From Escherichia coli (lineage in GTDB: Bacteria > Pseudomonadota > Gammaproteobacteria > Enterobacterales > Enterobacteriaceae), in NCBI RefSeq assembly GCF_044324785.1, contig NZ_CP172127.1: a stretch of 64,000 nt of DNA; one strand, 5' to 3'. Numbering within the stretch: position 1 is the first letter of the stretch; each line of letters begins with the position of its first letter. The notes below the pieces were generated by a model, which saw only the letters and a program-made list of their open reading frames with translations, was not told where the DNA came from and searched no databases. Shown here piece after piece: positions 37 through 8,086 of the stretch. The position numbers and the translations under genes were made by a program.

Positions 37-1395
37 ATGACTCAACGACGTGATTTACAAGCACTGATCGATGCTGCTCCGGTCGGCAAGATGCAGTGGC
101 GCGTTATCATCTGCTGTTTTCTGGTGGTAATGCTCGATGGTTTTGACACCGCGGCTATCGGCTTTATCGCCCCTGATATTCGCACTCACTGGCAACTCAC
201 CGCAGGCGATCTCGCCCCGCTTTTTGGCGCGGGTCTGCTGGGGTTAACCGCAGGCGCACTGCTTTGTGGTCCGTTGTCCGATCGCTTTGGCCGCAAACGT
301 GTGATTGAGCTGTGCGTCTTTTTGTTTGGCGCGTTAAGCCTCGCCTCGGCTTTCTCACCGGATCTGCAAACGCTGGTATTCCTGCGTTTCCTCACCGGCC
401 TTGGGCTGGGTGGCGCGATGCCAAACACAATTACCATGACCTCGGAATATCTGCCTGCCCGCCGCCGCGGCGCGCTGGTGACGCTGATGTTTTGCGGCTT
501 TACCCTGGGTTCGGCGTTTGGCGGGATTGTCAGCGCGCAGCTGGTGCCGGTGATTGGCTGGCACGGGATCCTGGTGTTGGGTGGCGTATTACCGCTGATG
601 CTGTTTGTTGCACTGCTGGTGGTTCTGCCGGAATCGCCACGCTGGCAGGTGCGCCGCCAGCTACCCCAGGCGGTGATTGCGAAAACCGTCAGCGCCATCA
701 CCCGCGAGCGTTATGTCGATACCCACTTTTATCTCATTGAATCAGCCTCCGTTACAAAAGGCAGCATTCGTCAACTGTTTATGGGGCGTCAGTTACCCAT
801 CACGTTGATGCTGTGGGTGGTGTTCTTTATGAGCTTGCTGATTATTTACCTGCTCTCAAGCTGGATGCCAACGCTGCTCAACCATCGCGGCATCGACCTG
901 CAACATGCCTCCTGGGTTACCGCCGCGTTCCAGATTGGCGGTACGTTGGGCGCGCTGGCGCTGGGCGTGCTGATGGATAAGTTCAATCCTTTCCGCGTAC
1001 TGGCGCTGAGCTATGCCATAGGCGCTGTATGCATCGTGATGATTGGCTTAAGCCAGGACGGATTATGGCTAATGGCGCTGGCGATTTTCGGCACCGGCAT
1101 TGGCATCAGCGGATCGCAGGTGGGGCTGAATGCGCTGACCGCAACACTTTATCCAACACAAAGTCGCGCCACGGGCGTGAGCTGGTCAAACGCCGTGGGC
1201 CGCTGCGGCGCGATTGTTGGCTCGCTGTCTGGCGGCGTGATGATGGCGATGAATTTCTCTTTCGACACCCTGTTTTTCATTATCGCTGTGCCCGCGGCGA
1301 TCAGTGCGGTGATGTTAACCCTGCTGATCACCGTGGTTCGCCAGTCGACCTCTGTCCCTGACTCACTGCCTCACGCAGGTGTTGTGAACGAATAA
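37..1395 (+). CDS. mhbT: MFS transporter, aromatic-acid uptake (3-hydroxybenzoate/gentisate transporter, MhbT-like)
   Basis: 452-aa ORF with MFS signature loop (LSDRFGRKR) and multiple hydrophobic spans; first gene of a T-D-H-I-M ordered gentisate cluster; ATG at 37. Confidence 0.75.
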
Positions 1396-1406
1396 GGAGC
1401 ATCCCA

Positions 1407-2435
1407 ATGACTGATAACAATCAAAATAGCCGCGAGCAATTTTATCAGCATATTTCCGGGCAAAACCTGACCCCGCTGTGGGAGTCACTGCACCATCTGG
1501 TGCCAAAAACGCCCAACGCTAACTGTGCGCCAGCGTACTGGAATTATCAGGAGATCCGCCCGCTGCTGCTGGAGAGCGGCAGCCTGATTGGCGCGAAAGA
1601 AGCCGTGCGCCGCGTGCTGGTGCTGGAAAACCCGGCGCTGCGCGGGCAGTCTTCCATCACCGCGACTTTATATGCCGGTTTGCAACTGATCATGCCGGGC
1701 GAAGTGGCACCGAGTCATCGCCATAACCAGTCGGCGCTGCGTTTTATTGTTGAAGGTAAAGGGGCATTCACCGCCGTTGATGGCGAACGCACGCCAATGA
1801 ATGAGGGCGATTTTATCCTGACCCCGCAGTGGCGCTGGCACGATCACGGTAACCCTGGCGACGAACCGGTTATCTGGCTCGATGGGCTGGATCTGCCATT
1901 AGTGAACACTCTGGGCTGCGGTTTTGCCGAAGATTACCCGGAGGAGCAACAACCAGTAACGCGTAAAGAGGGCGATTACCTGCCGCGTTACGCTGCCAAT
2001 ATGTTGCCGCTGTGCCATCAGACCGGGAACTCCTCGCCCATCTTTAACTACCGTTATGACCGTAGCCGCGAAGTGCTACACGATTTAACCCGCCTGGGCG
2101 ATGCCGATGAGTGGGATGGCTACAAAATGCGCTACGTCAACCCGGTCACCGGTGGCTATCCGATGCCGTCGATGGGCGCTTTCCTGCAACTGCTGCCGAA
2201 AGGGTTTGCCTCACGCGTGGCGCGTACCACTGACAGCACCATCTACCATGTGGTGGAAGGTAGCGGGCAGGTCACTATCGGCAATGAAACCTTCAGCTTT
2301 AGTGCAAAAGATATCTTCGTGGTGCCGACCTGGCACGGCGTGTCGTTCCAGACCACGCAAGATACCGTTTTATTTAGTTTTTCGGACAGACCGGTACAAG
2401 AAGCCCTGGGGCTGTTCCGCGAAGCGCGTTATTAA
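1407..2435 (+). CDS. mhbD: gentisate 1,2-dioxygenase (bicupin)
   Basis: 342-aa ORF, cupin His motifs (HRH, WRWHDH), AAGGAG SD 9 nt upstream of ATG; position in cluster. Confidence 0.8.
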
Positions 2436-2450
2436 TTTGGGAGAGAGAAA

Positions 2451-3152
2451 ATGACTCAATACGTATTCGAACCACAAGCGCCCGTTACCGTACCGGTTGT
2501 TGGCAGTGATGAACAATTCCCCGTACGCCGCGTTTACTGCGTCGGACGTAACTATGCCGCCCACGCCCGCGAAATGGGCTTTGATCCGGATCGTGAACCG
2601 CCATTCTTCTTCTGCAAACCGGCGGATGCCGTTGTTCCGGTTGCCGCTGGCGAAACGCTGGCGCTGCCGTATCCGGCGCAGACCGATAACTACCATTATG
2701 AAATTGAACTGGTGGTGGCGATTGGTAAAAAAGGCAGTGATATCCCGCTGGAAAACGCCCATGAATATGTCTGGGGTTATGCCACGGGTCTTGATATGAC
2801 TCGCCGTGACCGTCAAATGGAAATGCGCCAGATGGGCCGCCCGTGGGAAATCGGCAAAGCGTTCGATCTCTCGGCCCCCATCGCGCCGCTGCACAAAGCC
2901 AGCGAAACTGGCGGTATTGATAACGCACCTATCTGGTTACAGGTTAACGGCGAAGATCATCAGCGCAGCGATATTCGTCATCTCATCTGGTCAGTGAATG
3001 AAACCATCAGCTACCTGTCAGGCTTCTTTGAGCTGCAACCGGGCGATCTAATCTTTACCGGTACGCCGGAAGGGGTTGGCCCAGTAGTCAAAGGTGATGT
3101 GATCACGGGCAACGTCGAGGGCTTAACGCCTATCGCGGTGAAGATTGTCTGA
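2451..3152 (+). CDS. mhbH: fumarylpyruvate hydrolase (FAH family)
   Basis: 233-aa ORF typical of fumarylacetoacetate-hydrolase family; follows dioxygenase. Confidence 0.75.
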
Positions 3153-3156
3153 GGTG

Positions 3157-3804
3157 ATGATGAAGCTGTACAGTTTTTTTAATAGTTCAGCGTCTTACCG
3201 GGTGCGCATTGCGCTGGCGCTGAAGGGTATCGATTACCAGACCGAAGGGGTGAATATCCGCATTGGTCAGCAAAACGAACTGGCCTACCGGCGGATGAAT
3301 CCGGTCGGGCTGGTGCCGACGCTGCTGACCGACGAGGGCGAATCACTCGGACAATCGCTGGCGATTATTGACTGGCTGGAGAGTCACTACCCGCAAGTTC
3401 CGCTGATGCCGCAGGAAGAACCGGCCCGCAACAAGGTGCTGGAAATTGTCTATGCCATCGCCTGCGATATTCATCCATTGAATAACCTACGCGTGCTGCG
3501 CTACCTGACCGAAGAGCTGAACGTCAGTGAAGAAGATAAAAAACGCTGGTATGCGCACTGGATCCAGCAAGGGTTAAGCGCGGTGGAACAGCTACTGCGC
3601 CAGAGCCAGTCGGGGCAATTTTGTGTGGGCGAGACGCCGACGCTGGCAGATTGCTGCCTTGTTCCACAGTGGGCGAACGCGCTACGTATGAACTGCGATC
3701 TGAGCGGGTATCCGCGCTGCAAAGCGGTGTACGACGCCTGCACGCAGCTGCCAGCGTTCATTGCCGCAGCGCCAGAAAATCAACAAGATAAAATTTCAGC
3801 CTGA
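3157..3804 (+). CDS. mhbI: maleylpyruvate isomerase (glutathione S-transferase zeta class)
   Basis: GST-fold ORF; ORF-track start at 3145 is TTG, first ATG at 3157 preceded by GAGGTG; overlaps upstream stop. Confidence 0.7.
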   Translation: MMKLYSFFNSSASYRVRIALALKGIDYQTEGVNIRIGQQNELAYRRMNPVGLVPTLLTDEGESLGQSLAIIDWLESHYPQVPLMPQEEPARNKVLEIVYAIACDIHPLNNLRVLRYLTEELNVSEEDKKRWYAHWIQQGLSAVEQLLRQSQSGQFCVGETPTLADCCLVPQWANALRMNCDLSGYPRCKAVYDACTQLPAFIAAAPENQQDKISA

Positions 3805-3818
3805 CCAGGAGAACCATA

Positions 3819-5012
3819 ATGACTAAAGTGACACGCGCAGTAATTGTGGGAGGCGGGATCGGCGGTGCGGCAACTGCGTTGTCACTGGCCCGCCAGGGGA
3901 TCAAAGTGGTGCTGCTGGAAAAGGCGCATGAGATCGGTGAGATTGGCGCAGGTATCCAGTTGGGGCCAAATGCGTTTTCGGCGTTGGATAGCCTCGGCGT
4001 CGGCGAAATCGCCCGCCAGCGCGCGGTATTCACCGATCACATCACCATGATGGATGCGGTAAACGCCGAAGAAGTGGTGCGCATTGAAACCGGTCAGGCC
4101 TTTCGCGATCATTTCGGCGGCCCTTACGCGGTGATCCACCGGGTTGATATTCACGCCTCGGTGTGGGAAGCGGTACTGACGCATCCGGACGTGGAATATC
4201 ACACCTCCACCAACGTCGTGGATATTCGCGAGACAGAAGACGATGTCACCGTTTTCGACGATCGCGGCAATAGTTGGATCGGCGATATTCTGATTGGCTG
4301 TGACGGCGTGAAGTCAGTGGTGCGCCAGAGCTTATTGGGCGATGCGCCGCGTGTCACCGGGCATGTGGTCTACCGTGCGGTTATCGATTGTGCCGATATG
4401 CCGGAAGATTTGCGCATTAACGCACCAGTACTGTGGGCGGGGCCGTGCTGTCACTTGGTGCATTACCCTTTACGCGGCGGCAAGCAGTATAACCTGGTGG
4501 TGACATTCCACAGCCGCCAGCAGGAAGAGTGGGGCGTGAAGGATGGCAGTAAAGAGGAAGTGCTCTCTTACTTTGAAGGGATTCACCCCCGTCCGCGCCA
4601 GATGCTGGATAAACCGACCTCCTGGCGACGCTGGTCAACCGCCGACCGTGAACCGGTAGCGAAGTGGGGAACGAAGCGCATTACGCTGGTGGGCGATGCG
4701 GCCCATCCGGTGGCGCAGTATATGGCGCAGGGTGCCTGTATGGCGCTGGAAGACGCGGTAACACTGGGTAAGGCGCTGGCGCAGTGTGAGGGTGATGCGG
4801 CACAAGCCTTTGCGCTGTATGAGTCGGTACGTATTCCGCGCACCGCGCGCATCGTCTGGTCGACCCGTGAAATGGGGCGGGTTTATCATGCCGCAGGAGT
4901 AGAGCGCCAGGTACGTAACCTGTTGTGGAAAGGGAAATCGCAGGCAGAGTTTTACCGCGGCATGGAGTGGCTGTACGGCTGGAAAGAAGATAACTGTTTG
5001 CAACCACGCTGA
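3819..5012 (+). CDS. mhbM: 3-hydroxybenzoate 6-hydroxylase (FAD-dependent monooxygenase, salicylate hydroxylase family)
   Basis: 397-aa ORF with N-terminal FAD fingerprint [11 protein letters not shown] and DAAH motif; last gene of cluster. Confidence 0.75.
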
Positions 5013-5073: not shown

Positions 5074-6021
5074 ATGCGTGTGTTACTGGCTCCGATGGAG
5101 GGTGTGCTTGACTCTCTGGTGCGTGAATTGCTGACCGAAGTTAACGACTACGATCTGTGCATCACCGAGTTTGTCCGCGTGGTGGATCAACTGCTGCCGG
5201 TAAAAGTCTTTCATCGCATTTGCCCTGAGCTACAAAACGCCAGCCGGACACCATCCGGTACGCTGGTGCGCGTGCAGTTGTTAGGTCAGTTCCCACAATG
5301 GCTGGCAGAGAATGCCGCCCGTGCGGTCGAGTTAGGTTCCTGGGGCGTGGATCTCAATTGCGGCTGCCCGTCGAAAACGGTTAACGGTAGCGGCGGTGGG
5401 GCGACGTTACTCAAAGATCCTGAACTCATCTATCAGGGTGCAAAAGCGATGCGCGAAGCTGTACCGGCGCATTTGCCCGTAAGCGTAAAAGTGCGTCTGG
5501 GCTGGGACAGCGGTGAGAAGAAATTTGAAATCGCCGATGCGGTGCAACAGGCTGGCGCTACGGAGCTGGTGGTGCATGGGCGGACAAAAGAGCAGGGTTA
5601 CCGCGCGGAGCATATTGACTGGCAGGCGATTGGCGAGATTCGCCAGCGGCTGAATATTCCGGTGATTGCCAACGGTGAAATCTGGGACTGGCAGAGTGCG
5701 CAACAATGCATGGCGATCAGCGGCTGTGACGCAGTGATGATTGGTCGCGGGGCGCTCAATATTCCCAACCTGAGCCGGGTGGTAAAATATAACGAACCGC
5801 GAATGCCGTGGCCGGAGGTGGTTGCTTTGCTGCAAAAATATACCCGTCTGGAAAAGCAGGGCGATACCGGGTTATATCACGTTGCGCGGATTAAACAGTG
5901 GTTGAGTTATTTGCGTAAAGAATACGATGAAGCAACGGAATTATTTCAGCATGTTCGGGTGTTGAATAATTCCCCTGATATTGCAAGGGCTATTCAGGCA
6001 ATTGATATCGAGAAACTCTAA
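5074..6021 (+). CDS. dusC: tRNA-dihydrouridine(16) synthase DusC
   Basis: 315 aa from internal ATG ([13 protein letters not shown]...) matches K-12 DusC N-terminus; ORF track extends 16 codons upstream. Confidence 0.9.
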
Positions 6022-6252
6022 AAAACCATAGTGATGTTTTTTGACAATGTGTTAGCTCTTTATCAATAGGCCGCACGGTTGTTTGGTGGCGTCAAAATCG
6101 CCGAGGCGTTCCCTGAAGGCCGGGGCAGCCCACATGGATGTGGGCTGAGGGCGCGTTTTACAGGGATAATGAGATGGACGCTCCAGATTTTACGGTATCA
6201 AAGTACCAGACTGGATCGTTGCAATACGTCCTGAAAAATTAGGAGCGTCCAC

Positions 6253-7278
6253 ATGAAAGTATCAACTCTTGGTATCGACCTGGCAAAGAACGTTTTTCAG
6301 CTTCATGGTGTCGATCATGAAGGCCATACTATTTTGCGTAAAAAACTCACCCGGGCTAAGTTTGTTCAGTTTGTGATTCAACTGGAACCTTGTCTGATTG
6401 GCATGGAAGCCTGCTCATCCAGTCATTATTTTGCGCGATTATTCACCCGCTATGGTCATGAGGTAAAACTCATACCTCCGCAGTATGTGAAGCCTTATGT
6501 GAAAACGAACAAGACGGATGCAGCAGATGCTGAAGCAATCTGCGAAGCGGTAACCCGTCCGAATATGCGTTTTGTTCAGATAAAAACCGAAGAGCAGCAG
6601 GCCGTTTTAGCGTTACACACTGAACGGGGAATACTTATCCGTGAGCGGATTGCCTGTGCCAATAGTTTAAGAGCCACACTTGCTGAGTTTGGTATTACGA
6701 TTGCGGCCGGACAAAGCCATTTAACCCGTGAGCTGCCAGCCATTCTGGAGGATGGCGAAAATGGTTTATCTCCCTTTGTCAGAACCAGCATCTACAGACA
6801 GTCTAAACATATCCGGGAACTTGAAGAACAAGTTAAACAGGTAGAAGAAGCTCTGGCCTCCTGGTATAGAACGCAGGAAGCCTGCCAGAGAATGGCCAAA
6901 ATCCCGGGGGTTGGCATGCTAACGGCCACTTATGTGGTAGCAGCAGTGGGTAATGCCCGACAATTCAGTACCGCAAAGCAGTTCGCTTCATGGCTGGGGC
7001 TGACACCAAAGGAACATTCCAGCGGCGGGAAACAGCAACTGGGAGGGATCAGCAAACGTGGAGATGGATATTTCCGATACCTGCTGGTTCACGGCGCACG
7101 CGCACTTACCGCCTGGGTCAACCGAAACGGCGCGGTTGAGGAGAATTCCTGGCTTCAGGGACTCCTTGAGCGGAAGCACTACAATGTAGCTGTTGTCGCC
7201 ATGGCGGCAAAAACAGCGAGGATCATGTGGTCAATGTTGTCACACAATACTGAATATCAACCTCGGCAGCTCGCCTGA
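6253..7278 (+). CDS. IS110-family DEDD transposase/recombinase
   Basis: 341-aa ORF, N-terminal LGIDLAK RuvC-like motif, strong similarity in pattern to IS4321/IS5075-type transposases. Confidence 0.9.
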   Translation: MKVSTLGIDLAKNVFQLHGVDHEGHTILRKKLTRAKFVQFVIQLEPCLIGMEACSSSHYFARLFTRYGHEVKLIPPQYVKPYVKTNKTDAADAEAICEAVTRPNMRFVQIKTEEQQAVLALHTERGILIRERIACANSLRATLAEFGITIAAGQSHLTRELPAILEDGENGLSPFVRTSIYRQSKHIRELEEQVKQVEEALASWYRTQEACQRMAKIPGVGMLTATYVVAAVGNARQFSTAKQFASWLGLTPKEHSSGGKQQLGGISKRGDGYFRYLLVHGARALTAWVNRNGAVEENSWLQGLLERKHYNVAVVAMAAKTARIMWSMLSHNTEYQPRQLA

Positions 7279-7538
7279 CACAAGGTCAGTCAATCTGACG
7301 AGGTGCTGAAAAAAAGTTAACGTCCTGGTAGGTGCAGGTGACTTCAGAAGATGGCAAAACAGGTAAGACCGCAGGCAGGATACACCGAGAGGTAACAAGG
7401 GCAAGTTAGCCCGTAGAGGATGATTGGTACCTGCCTGGCGGATTTCATCATGGTTCGGGATAAAAATCCCATCAGAAACCGGATATATGGCTGCACCTAC
7501 CCGTTTTATTACATAACTGAAGAAAGCATTGCATTCCG
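7279..7538 (+). ncRNA. candidate IS-encoded structured ncRNA (bridge/seek-RNA-like) in 3' non-coding end of the IS
   Basis: 260-nt non-coding stretch between transposase stop and right IR containing 11-bp long-range inverted repeat GGTAGGTGCAG (7327-7337) / CTGCACCTACC (7491-7501). Confidence 0.3.
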
Positions 7539-7779
7539 GGAGCGTCCATATATGTTACCTCGCGCCCGACCCGGTAGCCGTAAGGGATAAGCCGAGGGCA
7601 CCGCGCAGCGGCGATTTTGTTCGCCAGAGCCCGGGGGTGCAGGGGGCGGCGGCGATTGGCCGCCCCCTGCGCGCTCCTTGCGCCAGTGATTATATGAAGC
7701 AATGCACATGACAGGAGCGCAACAGGATGAGAGACTGAAATATTCTCGTTATTTTCGGATCTGATGACATTAATTAATT

Positions 7780-7863
7780 TTAAAATATCATCTTAAATAC
7801 GCCAGTCACCACCAGTAGCCCAATCAGGAAAATAATCAATACAGCCCAGAGTATAATTTTCAT
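7780..7863 (-). CDS. yohP: small membrane protein YohP (27 aa)
   Basis: Manual translation of minus strand gives MKIILWAVLIIFLIGLLVVTGVFKMIF; below ORF-track length cut-off. Confidence 0.85.
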   Translation of the reverse strand: MKIILWAVLIIFLIGLLVVTGVFKMIF

Positions 7864-8086
7864 TGGCGTTCCTTTATTTGTGAGTGCTGAATAAGTATAG
7901 GAAAAAACGAAGTCCTTTGCCGTTATCCATAAACGATTAAGATAAATCGGAAGATATCATTCACTTAGTGTATATTTTTCTGGATATGTCATATTATTGC
8001 CACTGATGTTTTGCCACGCGAAACTAAAAAATATATCGCAACACACGGTAATCTCCGCGCACCTTTTCTTACCTGATTATTCCCCC

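What the first reader, a model, noticed from the sequence alone, without database searches (positions are those of the whole stretch)
6160..7560. IS110-family (IS1111-like) element inserted between dusC and yohP
A 341-aa DEDD transposase sits in what should be a short convergent dusC-yohP intergenic region. It is flanked by an inverted 11-bp motif (ATGGACGCTCC at 6174-6184; GGAGCGTCCAT at 7539-7549), consistent with the subterminal inverted repeats of IS1111-group elements. Exact ends and target site cannot be fixed without an uninterrupted reference.
Basis: partly seen in the sequence, partly recalled or inferred. Interest (0 to 1): 0.55.

Follow-up and report, generated by a model that had tools for sequence, protein, structure and literature searches.

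The report
ISEc81 insertion splitting the dusC RRS
This is a copy of the already catalogued insertion sequence ISEc81 (IS110 family, IS1111 group), almost certainly RNA-guided, sitting at its one preferred spot, a hairpin loop inside the conserved 'replication risk sequence' (RRS/TRIP1) repeat just downstream of dusC; the element is ordinary, but its landing site is mildly interesting.

Summary

Main results:
- **Ends.** K-12 MG1655 has the empty site. The window carries 1386 extra bp, with the IS at about 6167/6168-7552/7553 and a shared T (AT).
- **Name.** The transposase is 98.8% identical to ISfinder's ISEc81, so this is ISEc81 or an isoform.
- **Subgroup.** It has the IS1111-group layout: ATGGAC... 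subterminal repeats, a 3' non-coding region, and a promoter (TTGCAT-16-TATAAT) that would form only on circularisation.
- **RNA.** The 3' region encodes a conserved two-loop seek/bridge RNA. Its guides match the target flank (GAGGUAACA versus TGTTACCTC) and the IS ends, and they covary with flanks and ends in 12 distant relatives.
- **Target.** The intergenic region is not "short and empty". It holds the about 224-bp RRS/TRIP1c repeat, and the IS lies in a hairpin loop of it. It has the same position and orientation at four E. coli loci and three Kluyvera loci.
- **Spread.** 179 of 5426 complete E. coli genomes carry the IS, 92 of them at this site.

Verdict: a known element, correctly interpreted. 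The RRS-specific targeting is a modest extra.

The parts
5074..6021 (+). dusC (tRNA-dihydrouridine(16) synthase), the left neighbour. It is not part of the IS.
   Evidence: ORF. It is colinear with K-12 b2140, and RefSeq hits name dusC under this stretch.
6079..6167 (+). Left part (89 bp) of the RRS-dusC / TRIP1c repeat. It contains hairpin 1 (CAGCCCAC-AUGGAU-GUGGGCUG) and the 5' half of hairpin 2. Repeat homology begins at about 6068.
   Evidence: The same flank is present at four E. coli and three Kluyvera insertion sites. The RRS is defined as 58-281 bp downstream of dusC in PMC10592627, mapped to the window. Rfam TwoAYGGAY-like fold.
6166..6167 (+). AT present once in the empty K-12 site and on both sides of the IS here (second copy at 7552-7553). 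The T is the shared 'core' base. The A probably matches by coincidence with the conserved IS-borne A at 7552.
   Evidence: 2-bp overlap in the K-12 alignment. In 11 of 12 elements, the last base of the left flank equals the 4th base after IRR.
6168..7552 (+). ISEc81 body (1385 bp). With one copy of the shared T the insertion is 1386 bp. The registers 6166-7551, 6167-7552 and 6168-7553 cannot be told apart using K-12 alone.
   Evidence: There are 0 differences from the copy in strain N3.
6168..6173 (+). Left terminal extension AATGAG, outside IRL. It is AATGRN in the relatives.
6174..6184 (+). IRL, the left subterminal inverted repeat ATGGACGCTCC.
   Evidence: (I9).
6242..6252 (+). Internal third copy of the repeat (GGAGCGTCCA), directly ahead of the ATG. 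It supplies the AGGAG ribosome-binding site and forms a 17-nt hairpin with IRL (6175-6191 / 6235-6251).
   Evidence: (D5, I1) and the sequence.
6253..7278 (+). tnp, the 341-aa DEDD transposase. The motifs GIDLAK (7-12), GMEAC (50-54), KTDAADAEAI (87-96) and GLTPKEHSSGG (249-259) were located. By family knowledge, D9, E52, D89 and D92 would be the DEDD residues, and GLTPKEHSSG fits the GL-P----SG motif. No residue-level alignment to IS621 was made.
   Evidence: Weak C-terminal-domain similarity to the IS621 (8wt6) and ISCro4 (9t56) transposases.
7362..7494 (+). Core of the predicted seek/bridge RNA: a small hairpin, then a target-binding stem-loop (stem 7372-7379 / 7430-7437), then a donor-binding stem-loop (closing stem 7438-7441 / 7491-7494).
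   Evidence: The single-sequence fold gives this architecture, z = -2.5. Consensus fold of 12-13 relatives: the target-loop stem 7372-7379/7430-7437 shows 2-4 canonical pair types per position, 10-12 of 12 sequences paired; several shorter helices never vary.
7389..7397 (+). Target guide 'T', GAGGUAACA. It is the perfect complement of the top strand TGTTACCTC (shared T plus the right flank, 7553-7561).
   Evidence: (I12). Covariation control.
7418..7422 (+). Candidate target guide 'B', GGAUG. It has the same sense as the target GGAT|G, so it would pair with the bottom strand. It is only 5 nt here against 6-9 nt in relatives at the homologous place.
   Evidence: This is the weakest part of the model.
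7442..7448 (+). Donor guide AUUUCAU. It pairs with the top strand of the left end ATGAGAT (6169-6175), with one G-U pair.
   Evidence: Covariation of the left-end extension with this segment was read.
7481..7488 (+). Donor guide GGAUAUAU. Its AUAUAU has the same sense as the right-end extension plus the core base (7548-7553).
   Evidence: It tracks ATA / ACA / GTA plus the core base in 12 of 13 elements.
7529..7534 (+). -35-like TTGCAT. After circularisation it would lie 16 nt upstream of a perfect TATAAT made of T7551, A7552, the shared T, and A6168-T6170.
   Evidence: Junction sequence built. No + strand sigma-70-like site is found in the integrated copy. A junction promoter was shown experimentally for ISEc11 (PMC11187229).
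7539..7549 (+). IRR, the right subterminal inverted repeat GGAGCGTCCAT. It is followed by the 3-nt extension ATA (7550-7552), which is AYA in most relatives.
7554..7688 (+). Right part (135 bp) of RRS-dusC / TRIP1c. It includes the G-quadruplex motif GGGGGTGCAGGGGGCGGCGG at 7633-7652. Repeat homology continues to about 7726.
7780..7863 (-). yohP, the right neighbour. It is not part of the IS.

Best explanation
The feature is an intact copy of ISEc81, or a 98.8%-identical isoform. ISEc81 is an IS1111-group member of the IS110 family. This copy is 1386 bp long and is inserted without a conventional target duplication into the loop of the second hairpin of the RRS-dusC (TRIP1c) repeat: ...GGGCGCGTTTTACAGGGAT | GTTACCTCGCGCCC...

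**How it most likely works.** The steps below are inferred by homology with ISEc11 and IS621. The sequence features are shown here.
1. The DEDD transposase excises the element as a circle.
2. Joining the ends creates a TTGCAT-16-TATAAT promoter that reads into tnp and on into the 3' non-coding region.
3. That region yields a seek/bridge RNA of about 130 nt with two loops.
4. One loop pairs with both strands of the target: GAGGUAACA with the top strand TGTTACCTC, and GGAUG with the bottom strand.
5. The other loop pairs with the IS ends around the junction: AUUUCAU with the left end, and AUAUAU with the right end plus the core T.
6. The RNA brings donor and target together, and strands are exchanged at the shared T (AT).

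The guide specifies a sequence found only in RRS/TRIP1 repeats. The element is therefore confined to those few loci, about 2 copies per carrier genome, always in the same position and orientation.
For: **Identity**
- NCBIfam NF033542 at 359 bits and two Pfam domains.
- 337/341 aa identical to the ISfinder ISEc81 protein given in the supplement of PMC11187229.
- RefSeq annotates the same DNA as an IS110 family (RNA-guided) transposase.

**Ends and target**
- Empty site in K-12.
- Identical junctions at dusC-yohP, ybaP-copA, lysO-aqpZ and yegH-asmA in E. coli, and at three Kluyvera loci.

**IS1111-group layout**
- Conserved ATGGAC... subterminal repeats, an AATGRN left extension and an AYA right extension in 12 relatives.

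**RNA**
- A conserved, covarying structure in the 3' non-coding region.
- A 9-nt perfect target guide at the homologous position in 5 of 13 elements with unrelated flanks, against 1 of 156 mismatched IS/flank pairs.
- The donor guides track the differences in the IS ends.

**Promoter**
- No internal + strand promoter is found, but a perfect -10 forms at the circle junction.

**Recent mobility**
- The N3 copy at another locus has 0 differences.
- The element is present in 179 of 5426 genomes, and 92 of them have it at this site.

**Mechanism precedent**
- ISEc11 and other IS1111 members need the 3' non-coding-region RNA, which has a top-strand match placed 5' of a bottom-strand match (PMC11187229).
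Against: - Nothing about ISEc81 itself is experimental. No circle, RNA or transposition data exist in the literature I could search.
- The bottom-strand guide is only 5 nt in ISEc81.
- Four relatives show no clear target guide.
- No relatives between 53% and 96% identity were recovered. The covariation therefore rests on distant elements aligned with MAFFT.
- Nucleotide-level comparison with the ISfinder entry, and its recorded ends, was not possible.
- Some of the spread between nearly identical TRIP1 copies could be homologous recombination rather than transposition.
Confidence: 0.9

Rival explanations
1. The IS is not autonomously site-specific. It sits in several TRIP1/RRS copies because homologous recombination or gene conversion between the nearly identical repeats copied an ancestral insertion from one repeat to another.
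For: - The flanks of the dusC, lysO and ybaP copies are over 90% identical across about 90 + 170 bp.
- TRIP1a/1c recombination is frequent, with 137 events reported in PMC10888264.
- SMS-3-5 shows an inversion between the two occupied repeats.
Against: - The yegH-asmA repeat is much more divergent outside the hairpin, yet it carries the IS at exactly the same base.
- The IS encodes a 9-nt guide complementary to the flank, and relatives with other flanks have other guides.
- The ORF is intact, and copies are identical or nearly identical.
- Recombination may well contribute, but it does not explain the first insertion or the guide match.
Confidence: 0.07
2. The element belongs to the IS110 group proper, like IS621, with the guide RNA encoded upstream of the transposase. 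On this reading the 11-bp repeats are incidental.
For: - The NCBIfam and Pfam models do not separate the two groups.
- The only solved structures that match are IS621 and ISCro4.
- The 85-nt 5' region contains a 17-nt hairpin (I1).
Against: - The long non-coding region is 3' of tnp: 273 nt against 85 nt upstream.
- The subterminal repeats are conserved across relatives.
- The covarying structure and the guides lie in the 3' region.
- The ISEc81 protein occurs in the paper's transposase file and pairwise-identity table alongside IS1111 members (ISEc11, IS4321, IS5075). Group membership was not read from a tree or label.
- The transposase length of 341 aa is in the IS1111 range of 330-350 aa.
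Confidence: 0.02
3. The inverted motifs and the transposase are internal parts of a longer mobile unit of about 1.66 kb that includes the flanking repeat arms (6068-7726).
For: In every occupied site examined, including those in Kluyvera, the same roughly 100-bp and 175-bp arms flank the IS.
Against: - The arms exist joined and uninterrupted, without the IS, in 5425 of 5426 E. coli genomes, at a median of 3 places per genome.
- The K-12 copy is exactly arms minus 1386 bp.
- The arms are the independently described TRIP1/RRS element.
Confidence: 0.01

Closest known systems
ISEc81 (ISfinder entry; IS110 family, IS1111 group)
   Same: The transposase is 341 aa with 337 identical residues. The host species is the same. 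The element is detected in E. coli genome surveys.
   Different: There are four amino-acid differences (A91T, S155N, W288R, E297K). The nucleotide sequence, the recorded ends and the recorded target of the ISfinder entry could not be compared here.
ISEc11, the experimentally characterised IS1111-family seekRNA element (Siddiquee et al. 2024, PMC11187229)
   Same: - Subterminal inverted repeats and a 3' non-coding region.
- A promoter formed at the circle junction.
- An RNA with a top-strand match placed 5' of a bottom-strand match.
- Insertion without a target duplication.
   Different: - Only about 41% aa identity (142/345).
- A different target: GTGAAAATACTG against ACAGGGAT|GTTACCTC.
- A different length: 1433-1443 bp against 1386 bp.
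- Here the RNA, the circle and the promoter are predictions only.
IS621 and its bridge RNA (IS110 group; PDB 8wt6)
   Same: - A DEDD/RuvC domain plus a Ser-containing C-terminal domain.
- A two-loop RNA, with one loop for the target and one for the donor.
- A core base or bases shared by donor and target and read by both loops.
- It also targets a repeated palindromic element (REP).
   Different: - In IS621 the RNA is encoded 5' of the gene and there are no subterminal repeats.
- IS621 has a CT core dinucleotide. Here only one base (T, possibly AT) is demonstrably shared.
- Sequence similarity is limited to the C-terminal domain (E = 1.5e-7).
IS4321 / IS5075 (IS1111 group; Partridge & Hall 2003, cited from memory and from the reference list)
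   Same: Subterminal inverted repeats with short terminal extensions. One fixed position and orientation inside a conserved repeated sequence.
   Different: Their target is the 38-bp terminal repeat of Tn21-family transposons, not a chromosomal structural repeat.

Membership tests
IS110 family | An N-terminal DEDD (RuvC-like) transposase domain, Pfam PF01548. | tested here: met
   PF01548 at residues 6-146, E = 1e-14. NF033542 at 359 bits against a cut-off of 140. The motifs GIDLAK, GMEAC and KTDAADAEAI were located.
IS110 family | A C-terminal PF02371 domain with the G(L)-P----S/T-G motif. | tested here: met
   PF02371 at residues 211-289, E = 4e-24. GLTPKEHSSGG at 249-259. The motif definition comes from PMC11187229.
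IS110 family | Site-specific insertion without the usual multi-bp target-site duplication. | tested here: met
   The empty K-12 site differs by exactly the insertion, with only a 1-2 bp shared AT. The same base is used at 8 of 8 examined sites.
IS1111 group | Subterminal inverted repeats of sufficient length, set in from both ends. | tested here: met
   11-bp perfect repeats lie 6-7 nt from the left end and 3 nt from the right end. They are conserved as ATGGAC.../...GTCCAT in relatives.
IS1111 group | The longer non-coding region lies downstream of tnp. | tested here: met
   85 nt upstream (6168-6252) against 273-274 nt downstream (7279-7552).
IS1111 group | A seekRNA from the 3' non-coding region, with a top-strand match placed 5' of a bottom-strand match. 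| tested here: inconclusive
   In silico only. The top-strand match (9 nt, 7389-7397) is strong and covaries. The bottom-strand match (7418-7422) is only 5 nt. No RNA data were available.
IS1111 group | A circular intermediate whose junction forms a promoter. | not testable with these tools
   The sequence predicts TTGCAT-16 nt-TATAAT across the junction. The circle itself needs PCR.
ISEc81 (same IS or isoform) | Near-identical transposase. The ISfinder naming rule, from memory, is roughly >=95% aa and >=90% nt identity. | tested here: met
   98.8% aa identity.
ISEc81 (same IS or isoform) | Near-identical nucleotide sequence and the same ends. | not testable with these tools
   The ISfinder DNA entry is not available here.
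Target: RRS / TRIP1 repeat | The position and sequence of RRS-dusC: 58-281 bp downstream of dusC, containing GGGGGTGCAGGGGGCGGCGG. | tested here: met
   The G4 motif lies at 7633-7652, and the two flanks add up to 224 bp. TRIP1c is reported 43-44 bp downstream of yohI (= dusC).
Target: Rfam TwoAYGGAY (RF01731) | A score at or above the gathering threshold of 43 bits. | tested here: not met
   30.9 bits for the dusC copy and 30.6 bits for the lysO copy (E = 0.004-0.007). The matches are full-length and have the right architecture. This is a resemblance, not membership.

The most novel reading that the evidence does not exclude
ISEc81 may be a dedicated RNA-guided parasite of the RRS ('replication risk sequence') elements, which flank the Ter macrodomain and provoke lagging-strand ssDNA gaps.

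- Its target is a hairpin loop in DNA that is unusually often single-stranded or extruded. That state may be what makes pairing of the guide with both strands efficient.
- The insertion separates the left arm of the RRS from its G-quadruplex half.
- At least 34 complete genomes carry the IS in both canonical RRS. These are natural test strains for the reported requirement for at least one RRS.
- Neither RRS/TRIP1 paper that I read mentions this IS.
Probability: 0.25. Interest if true: 0.6.

Novelty: already known. Interest (0 to 1): 0.3.

Why it matters
As an element it changes nothing. It is a catalogued IS that RefSeq already labels an IS110-family RNA-guided transposase.

Three things give it some value:
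- **A worked natural example.** It shows an IS1111-type guide RNA whose target and donor guides can be read directly from the sequence and checked by covariation.
- **A safe-haven strategy.** The RNA-guided IS is confined to a 3-5-copy structural repeat, which explains its low and stable copy number.
- **An unnoted link to the RRS.** The IS interrupts the RRS elements, and often both of them. Their function in replication and chromosome topology is under active study, and nobody in the papers I could read has noted this. IS-mediated homology may also underlie some of the reported TRIP1a/1c inversions.

Tried and rejected
- **Rfam.** A scan of 5900-8000 at E <= 1 found no bridge/seek RNA family. 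It returned only chance-level AgvB and mir-611 hits, so there is no curated model for this RNA.
- **Whole-NCR fold.** The MFE fold of the whole 273-nt non-coding region gave a long-range global fold that the relatives do not share. I replaced it with the consensus fold and the sub-region fold.
- **An 11-bp 'closing stem' (I11).** The stem 7327-7337/7491-7501 is strong in ISEc81, but it competes with the conserved donor-loop closing stem 7438-7441/7491-7494. I do not rely on it.
- **A first target reconstruction.** It wrongly contained AT twice. This was corrected: the extra DNA is 1386 bp, not 1384 bp.
- **Genome scan for relatives.** The search for related loci on genome contigs returned only relatives at >=96% or <=53% identity, apart from one truncated 60% fragment (L030), with no usable intermediates such as ISYen1. 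There is therefore no fine-grained covariation series.
- **ISEc11.** Considered as the identity and rejected: 41% aa identity and a different target.
- **A plasmid 'copy' of the repeat.** It turned out to be a chromosomal macA-poxB segment on a 42-kb replicon and is uninformative about spread.
- **CGUUUUAU (7502-7509).** It has the same sense as target positions -13 to -6. It has no counterpart in relatives, so I treat it as chance.
- **AYGGAY resemblance.** The IS repeat ATGGAC and the AYGGAY loops of the target look alike. I noted this and left it as unexplained or coincidental.
Full report
**1. The observation**

The region reads as the first-stage reader said.
- An ATG-initiated ORF of 341 aa runs from 6253 to 7278 on the + strand.
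- ATGGACGCTCC lies at 6174-6184 and its exact reverse complement GGAGCGTCCAT at 7539-7549 (pair I9). Each 11-mer occurs only once in the 64-kb window.
- A third, direct copy (GGAGCGTCCA, 6242-6252) sits immediately ahead of the start codon. It supplies the AGGAG ribosome-binding site and forms a 17-nt hairpin with the left repeat (D5 and I1).
- By my arithmetic, a perfect 11-nt inverted pair in two windows of this size is expected about 0.005 times by chance.
- The stronger argument is that distant relatives carry the same kind of repeat at the same place (section 4).

**2. What the protein is**
- It matches NCBIfam NF033542, 'IS110 family RNA-guided transposase', at 359 bits against a cut-off of 140.
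- It matches Pfam DEDD_Tnp_IS110 (6-146) and Transposase_20 (211-289).
- The motifs GIDLAK, GMEAC, KTDAADAEAI and GLTPKEHSSGG are present. The last fits the GL-P----S(t)G motif given for IS1111-family transposases in PMC11187229.
- The only solved structures with detectable similarity are the IS621 and ISCro4 transposases. The similarity is limited to the C-terminal domain, E about 1e-7.
- The FASTA file in the supplement of PMC11187229 holds the ISfinder proteins. ISEc81 there is 341 aa and differs from the window protein at four positions, 98.8% identity.
- ISEc11, the element studied in that paper, is only about 41% identical.
- The element is therefore ISEc81 or an isoform of it. RefSeq annotates identical DNA as an 'IS110 family (RNA-guided) transposase', WP_000868863.1. 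The N3 copy has no differences from the window across 6168-7551.

**3. Ends and target**
- K-12 MG1655 has the empty site. Window 5900-6167 and 7552-7900 align to a continuous K-12 sequence at over 99.6% identity, with a 2-bp overlap, AT.
- The window has 1386 extra bp. The target reads ...GCGCGTTTTACAGGGAT|GTTACCTCGCGCCC....
- K-12 alone leaves three registers (6166-7551, 6167-7552, 6168-7553).
- Relatives narrow this down:
  - The six bases outside IRL are AATGRN in nearly all of them.
  - The three bases outside IRR are AYA in most of them.
  - In 11 of 12 elements, the base before AATGRN equals the fourth base after IRR.
- The body is therefore 6168-7552, plus one shared 'core' base, T. 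The A of the AT overlap is the IS-borne A of AYA, which happens to match the target.

**4. Subgroup**
- Twelve relatives at 40-53% amino-acid identity were recovered from other phyla and classes. All have ATGGAC-type subterminal repeats and a non-coding region of about 245-470 nt downstream of tnp.
- These are the criteria PMC11187229 uses to separate IS1111 from IS110 proper.

**5. The guide RNA**

*Structure*
- Aligning the last 215 nt before IRR of 13 elements gives a conserved architecture: a small hairpin, then a stem-loop closed by 7372-7379/7430-7437, then a second stem-loop closed by 7438-7441/7491-7494.
- The first stem shows 2-4 different canonical pair types per position, with 10-12 of 12 sequences paired at each position. 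This is genuine compensatory variation.
- The ISEc81 sequence alone folds the same way, z = -2.5.

*Target guides*
- The 5' side of the first loop holds GAGGUAACA (7389-7397). It is the exact complement of TGTTACCTC, the shared T plus the right flank (I12, 32).
- At the homologous place, 146-156 nt upstream of IRR, four relatives with unrelated flanks also carry perfect 9-nt complements of their own right flanks, starting at the same base or one base later.
- In a control, 5 of 13 cognate pairs reach 9 nt, against 1 of 156 non-cognate pairs.
- After a small covarying hairpin, the 3' side of the loop holds a same-sense copy of the left flank: 6-9 nt in six relatives, but only GGAUG (7418-7422) in ISEc81. 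This is the weak point of the model.

*Donor guides*
- AUUUCAU (7442-7448) pairs with the left end ATGAGAT. It changes with the left end in the relatives: AATGGR goes with UUCCAU, AATGAC with AUGUCAU, and AATGAA with AUUUCAU.
- GGAUAUAU (7481-7488) repeats the right extension plus the core base. It tracks ATA, ACA or GTA plus that base in 12 of 13 elements.

*Reading*
- The RNA has a target loop and a donor loop, and both read the core base. That is the logic of the IS621 bridge RNA.
- The strand order is the one reported for IS1111 seekRNAs, with the top-strand match first.
- All of this is sequence inference. No RNA data exist for ISEc81.

**6. Expression**
- The integrated copy has no sigma-70-like site on the + strand.
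- Joining the ends gives ...TTGCAT-16 nt-TATAAT..., with the -10 box built from both ends and the core base.
- This matches the junction promoter demonstrated for ISEc11.

**7. The target is a known repeat**
- The flanks (about 6068-6167 and 7554-7726) are repeated. The joined K-12 sequence occurs in 5425 of 5426 complete E. coli genomes, at a median of 3 places per genome.
- It is the TRIP1 repeat. TRIP1c lies downstream of yohI (= dusC), TRIP1a between aqpZ and ybjE (lysO), and TRIP1e between ybaP and copA (PMC10888264).
- It is the same thing as the 222-bp 'Replication Risk Sequence' of PMC10592627, where RRS-dusC is defined as 58-281 bp downstream of dusC.
- In the window this maps to 6079-6167 plus 7554-7688. 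The RRS G-quadruplex motif lies at 7633-7652, to the right of the IS.
- Both K-12 RRS copies give full-length hits to Rfam TwoAYGGAY, 30.9 and 30.6 bits against a gathering score of 43.
- In that fold the IS sits in the loop of the second hairpin, immediately after AGGGAU.

**8. Distribution**
- The IS occurs in 179 of 5426 genomes, with a median of 2 places and a maximum of 4.
- It is at the dusC junction in 92 genomes and at the lysO junction in 60.
- Other occupied sites are ybaP-copA and a divergent repeat between yegH and asmA.
- At all of these, and at three loci in Kluyvera genomosp. 3, the junctions are identical and the orientation relative to the repeat is the same.
- The small number of targets explains the low copy number.

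**9. Rivals**
- *Spread by recombination between repeats.* This is plausible as a contributor. It does not explain the guide match, or the insertion in the divergent yegH-asmA repeat.
- *An IS621-type layout.* This is excluded by the position of the covarying RNA.
- *A longer composite unit.* This is excluded by the ubiquitous IS-free repeats.

**10. Verdict**
- The finding is real and correctly interpreted. It concerns an element that is already catalogued, so novelty is 'already known' and interest is modest.
- The part that may be new is the link between ISEc81 and the RRS. At least 34 genomes have the IS in both canonical RRS. The RRS and TRIP1 papers I read do not mention an IS, and the three papers that name ISEc81 only list it.

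Noticed in passing
window 6079-6167 + 7554-7616; L001 5230-5381 (-); L041 2537-2676 (+): The RRS/TRIP1 repeat gives full-length but sub-threshold hits to the Rfam TwoAYGGAY motif: 30.9 and 30.6 bits against GA 43, E = 0.004-0.007. It shares the long closing stem and two adjacent hairpins with AUGGAU and AGGGAU loops. TwoAYGGAY has no known function, so the two may be the same kind of element.
   Followed up: partly
E. coli complete genomes (lists, intersected): At least 34 genomes carry ISEc81 at both the lysO-side and the dusC-side RRS junction. PMC10592627 reports that MG1655 tolerates loss of one RRS but not both. The G-quadruplex half stays intact, so the function may survive.
   Followed up: partly
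L040 (E. coli SMS-3-5, NC_010498.1 907483-913913): One IS copy is flanked by lysO on the left and yohP-mdtQ on the right. This indicates a large inversion between the two occupied RRS loci. The IS adds 1.4 kb of perfect homology to repeats already known to recombine.
   Followed up: no
L038 (strain 33F4, yegH-asmA) and L043 3487-3760 (K-12): There is a sixth TRIP1-like locus that is not among TRIP1a-e of PMC10888264. Strain 33F4 has a divergent full copy carrying ISEc81. K-12 keeps only the right part and lacks 172 bp, including the target hairpin.
   Followed up: partly
window 37-5012: A 3-hydroxybenzoate/gentisate catabolic cluster lies directly upstream of dusC, where K-12 has yohJK. It comprises an aromatic-acid MFS transporter, gentisate 1,2-dioxygenase, an FAH-family hydrolase, a maleylacetoacetate/maleylpyruvate isomerase and 3-hydroxybenzoate 6-monooxygenase.
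   Followed up: partly
window 6174-6179 and 7544-7549 versus 6134-6139 and 6162-6167: The conserved start of the IS1111-type repeat, ATGGAC, itself fits AYGGAY. This is the loop motif of the target's first hairpin (ATGGAT) and nearly that of the second (AGGGAT). It could be coincidence or a protein-recognition feature.
   Followed up: no
L006 (Kluyvera genomosp. 3, third copy): This copy has AC instead of AT immediately to the right of the IS, a change at the shared core base.
   Followed up: no
L042 (plasmid pZ1323HEC0475-2, NZ_CP148327.1): A 42-kb 'plasmid' carries a chromosomal macA-ybjX-ybjD-aqpZ-lysO-hcp-hcr-poxB segment with a partial TRIP1a. It could be an excised circle or an assembly artefact.
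   Followed up: no
window 7697-7757 (-): A weak AgvB (anti-GcvB sRNA) Rfam hit of 22.9 bits against GA 56, E = 0.18, between the repeat and yohP. It is also present in K-12 and is probably chance.
   Followed up: no
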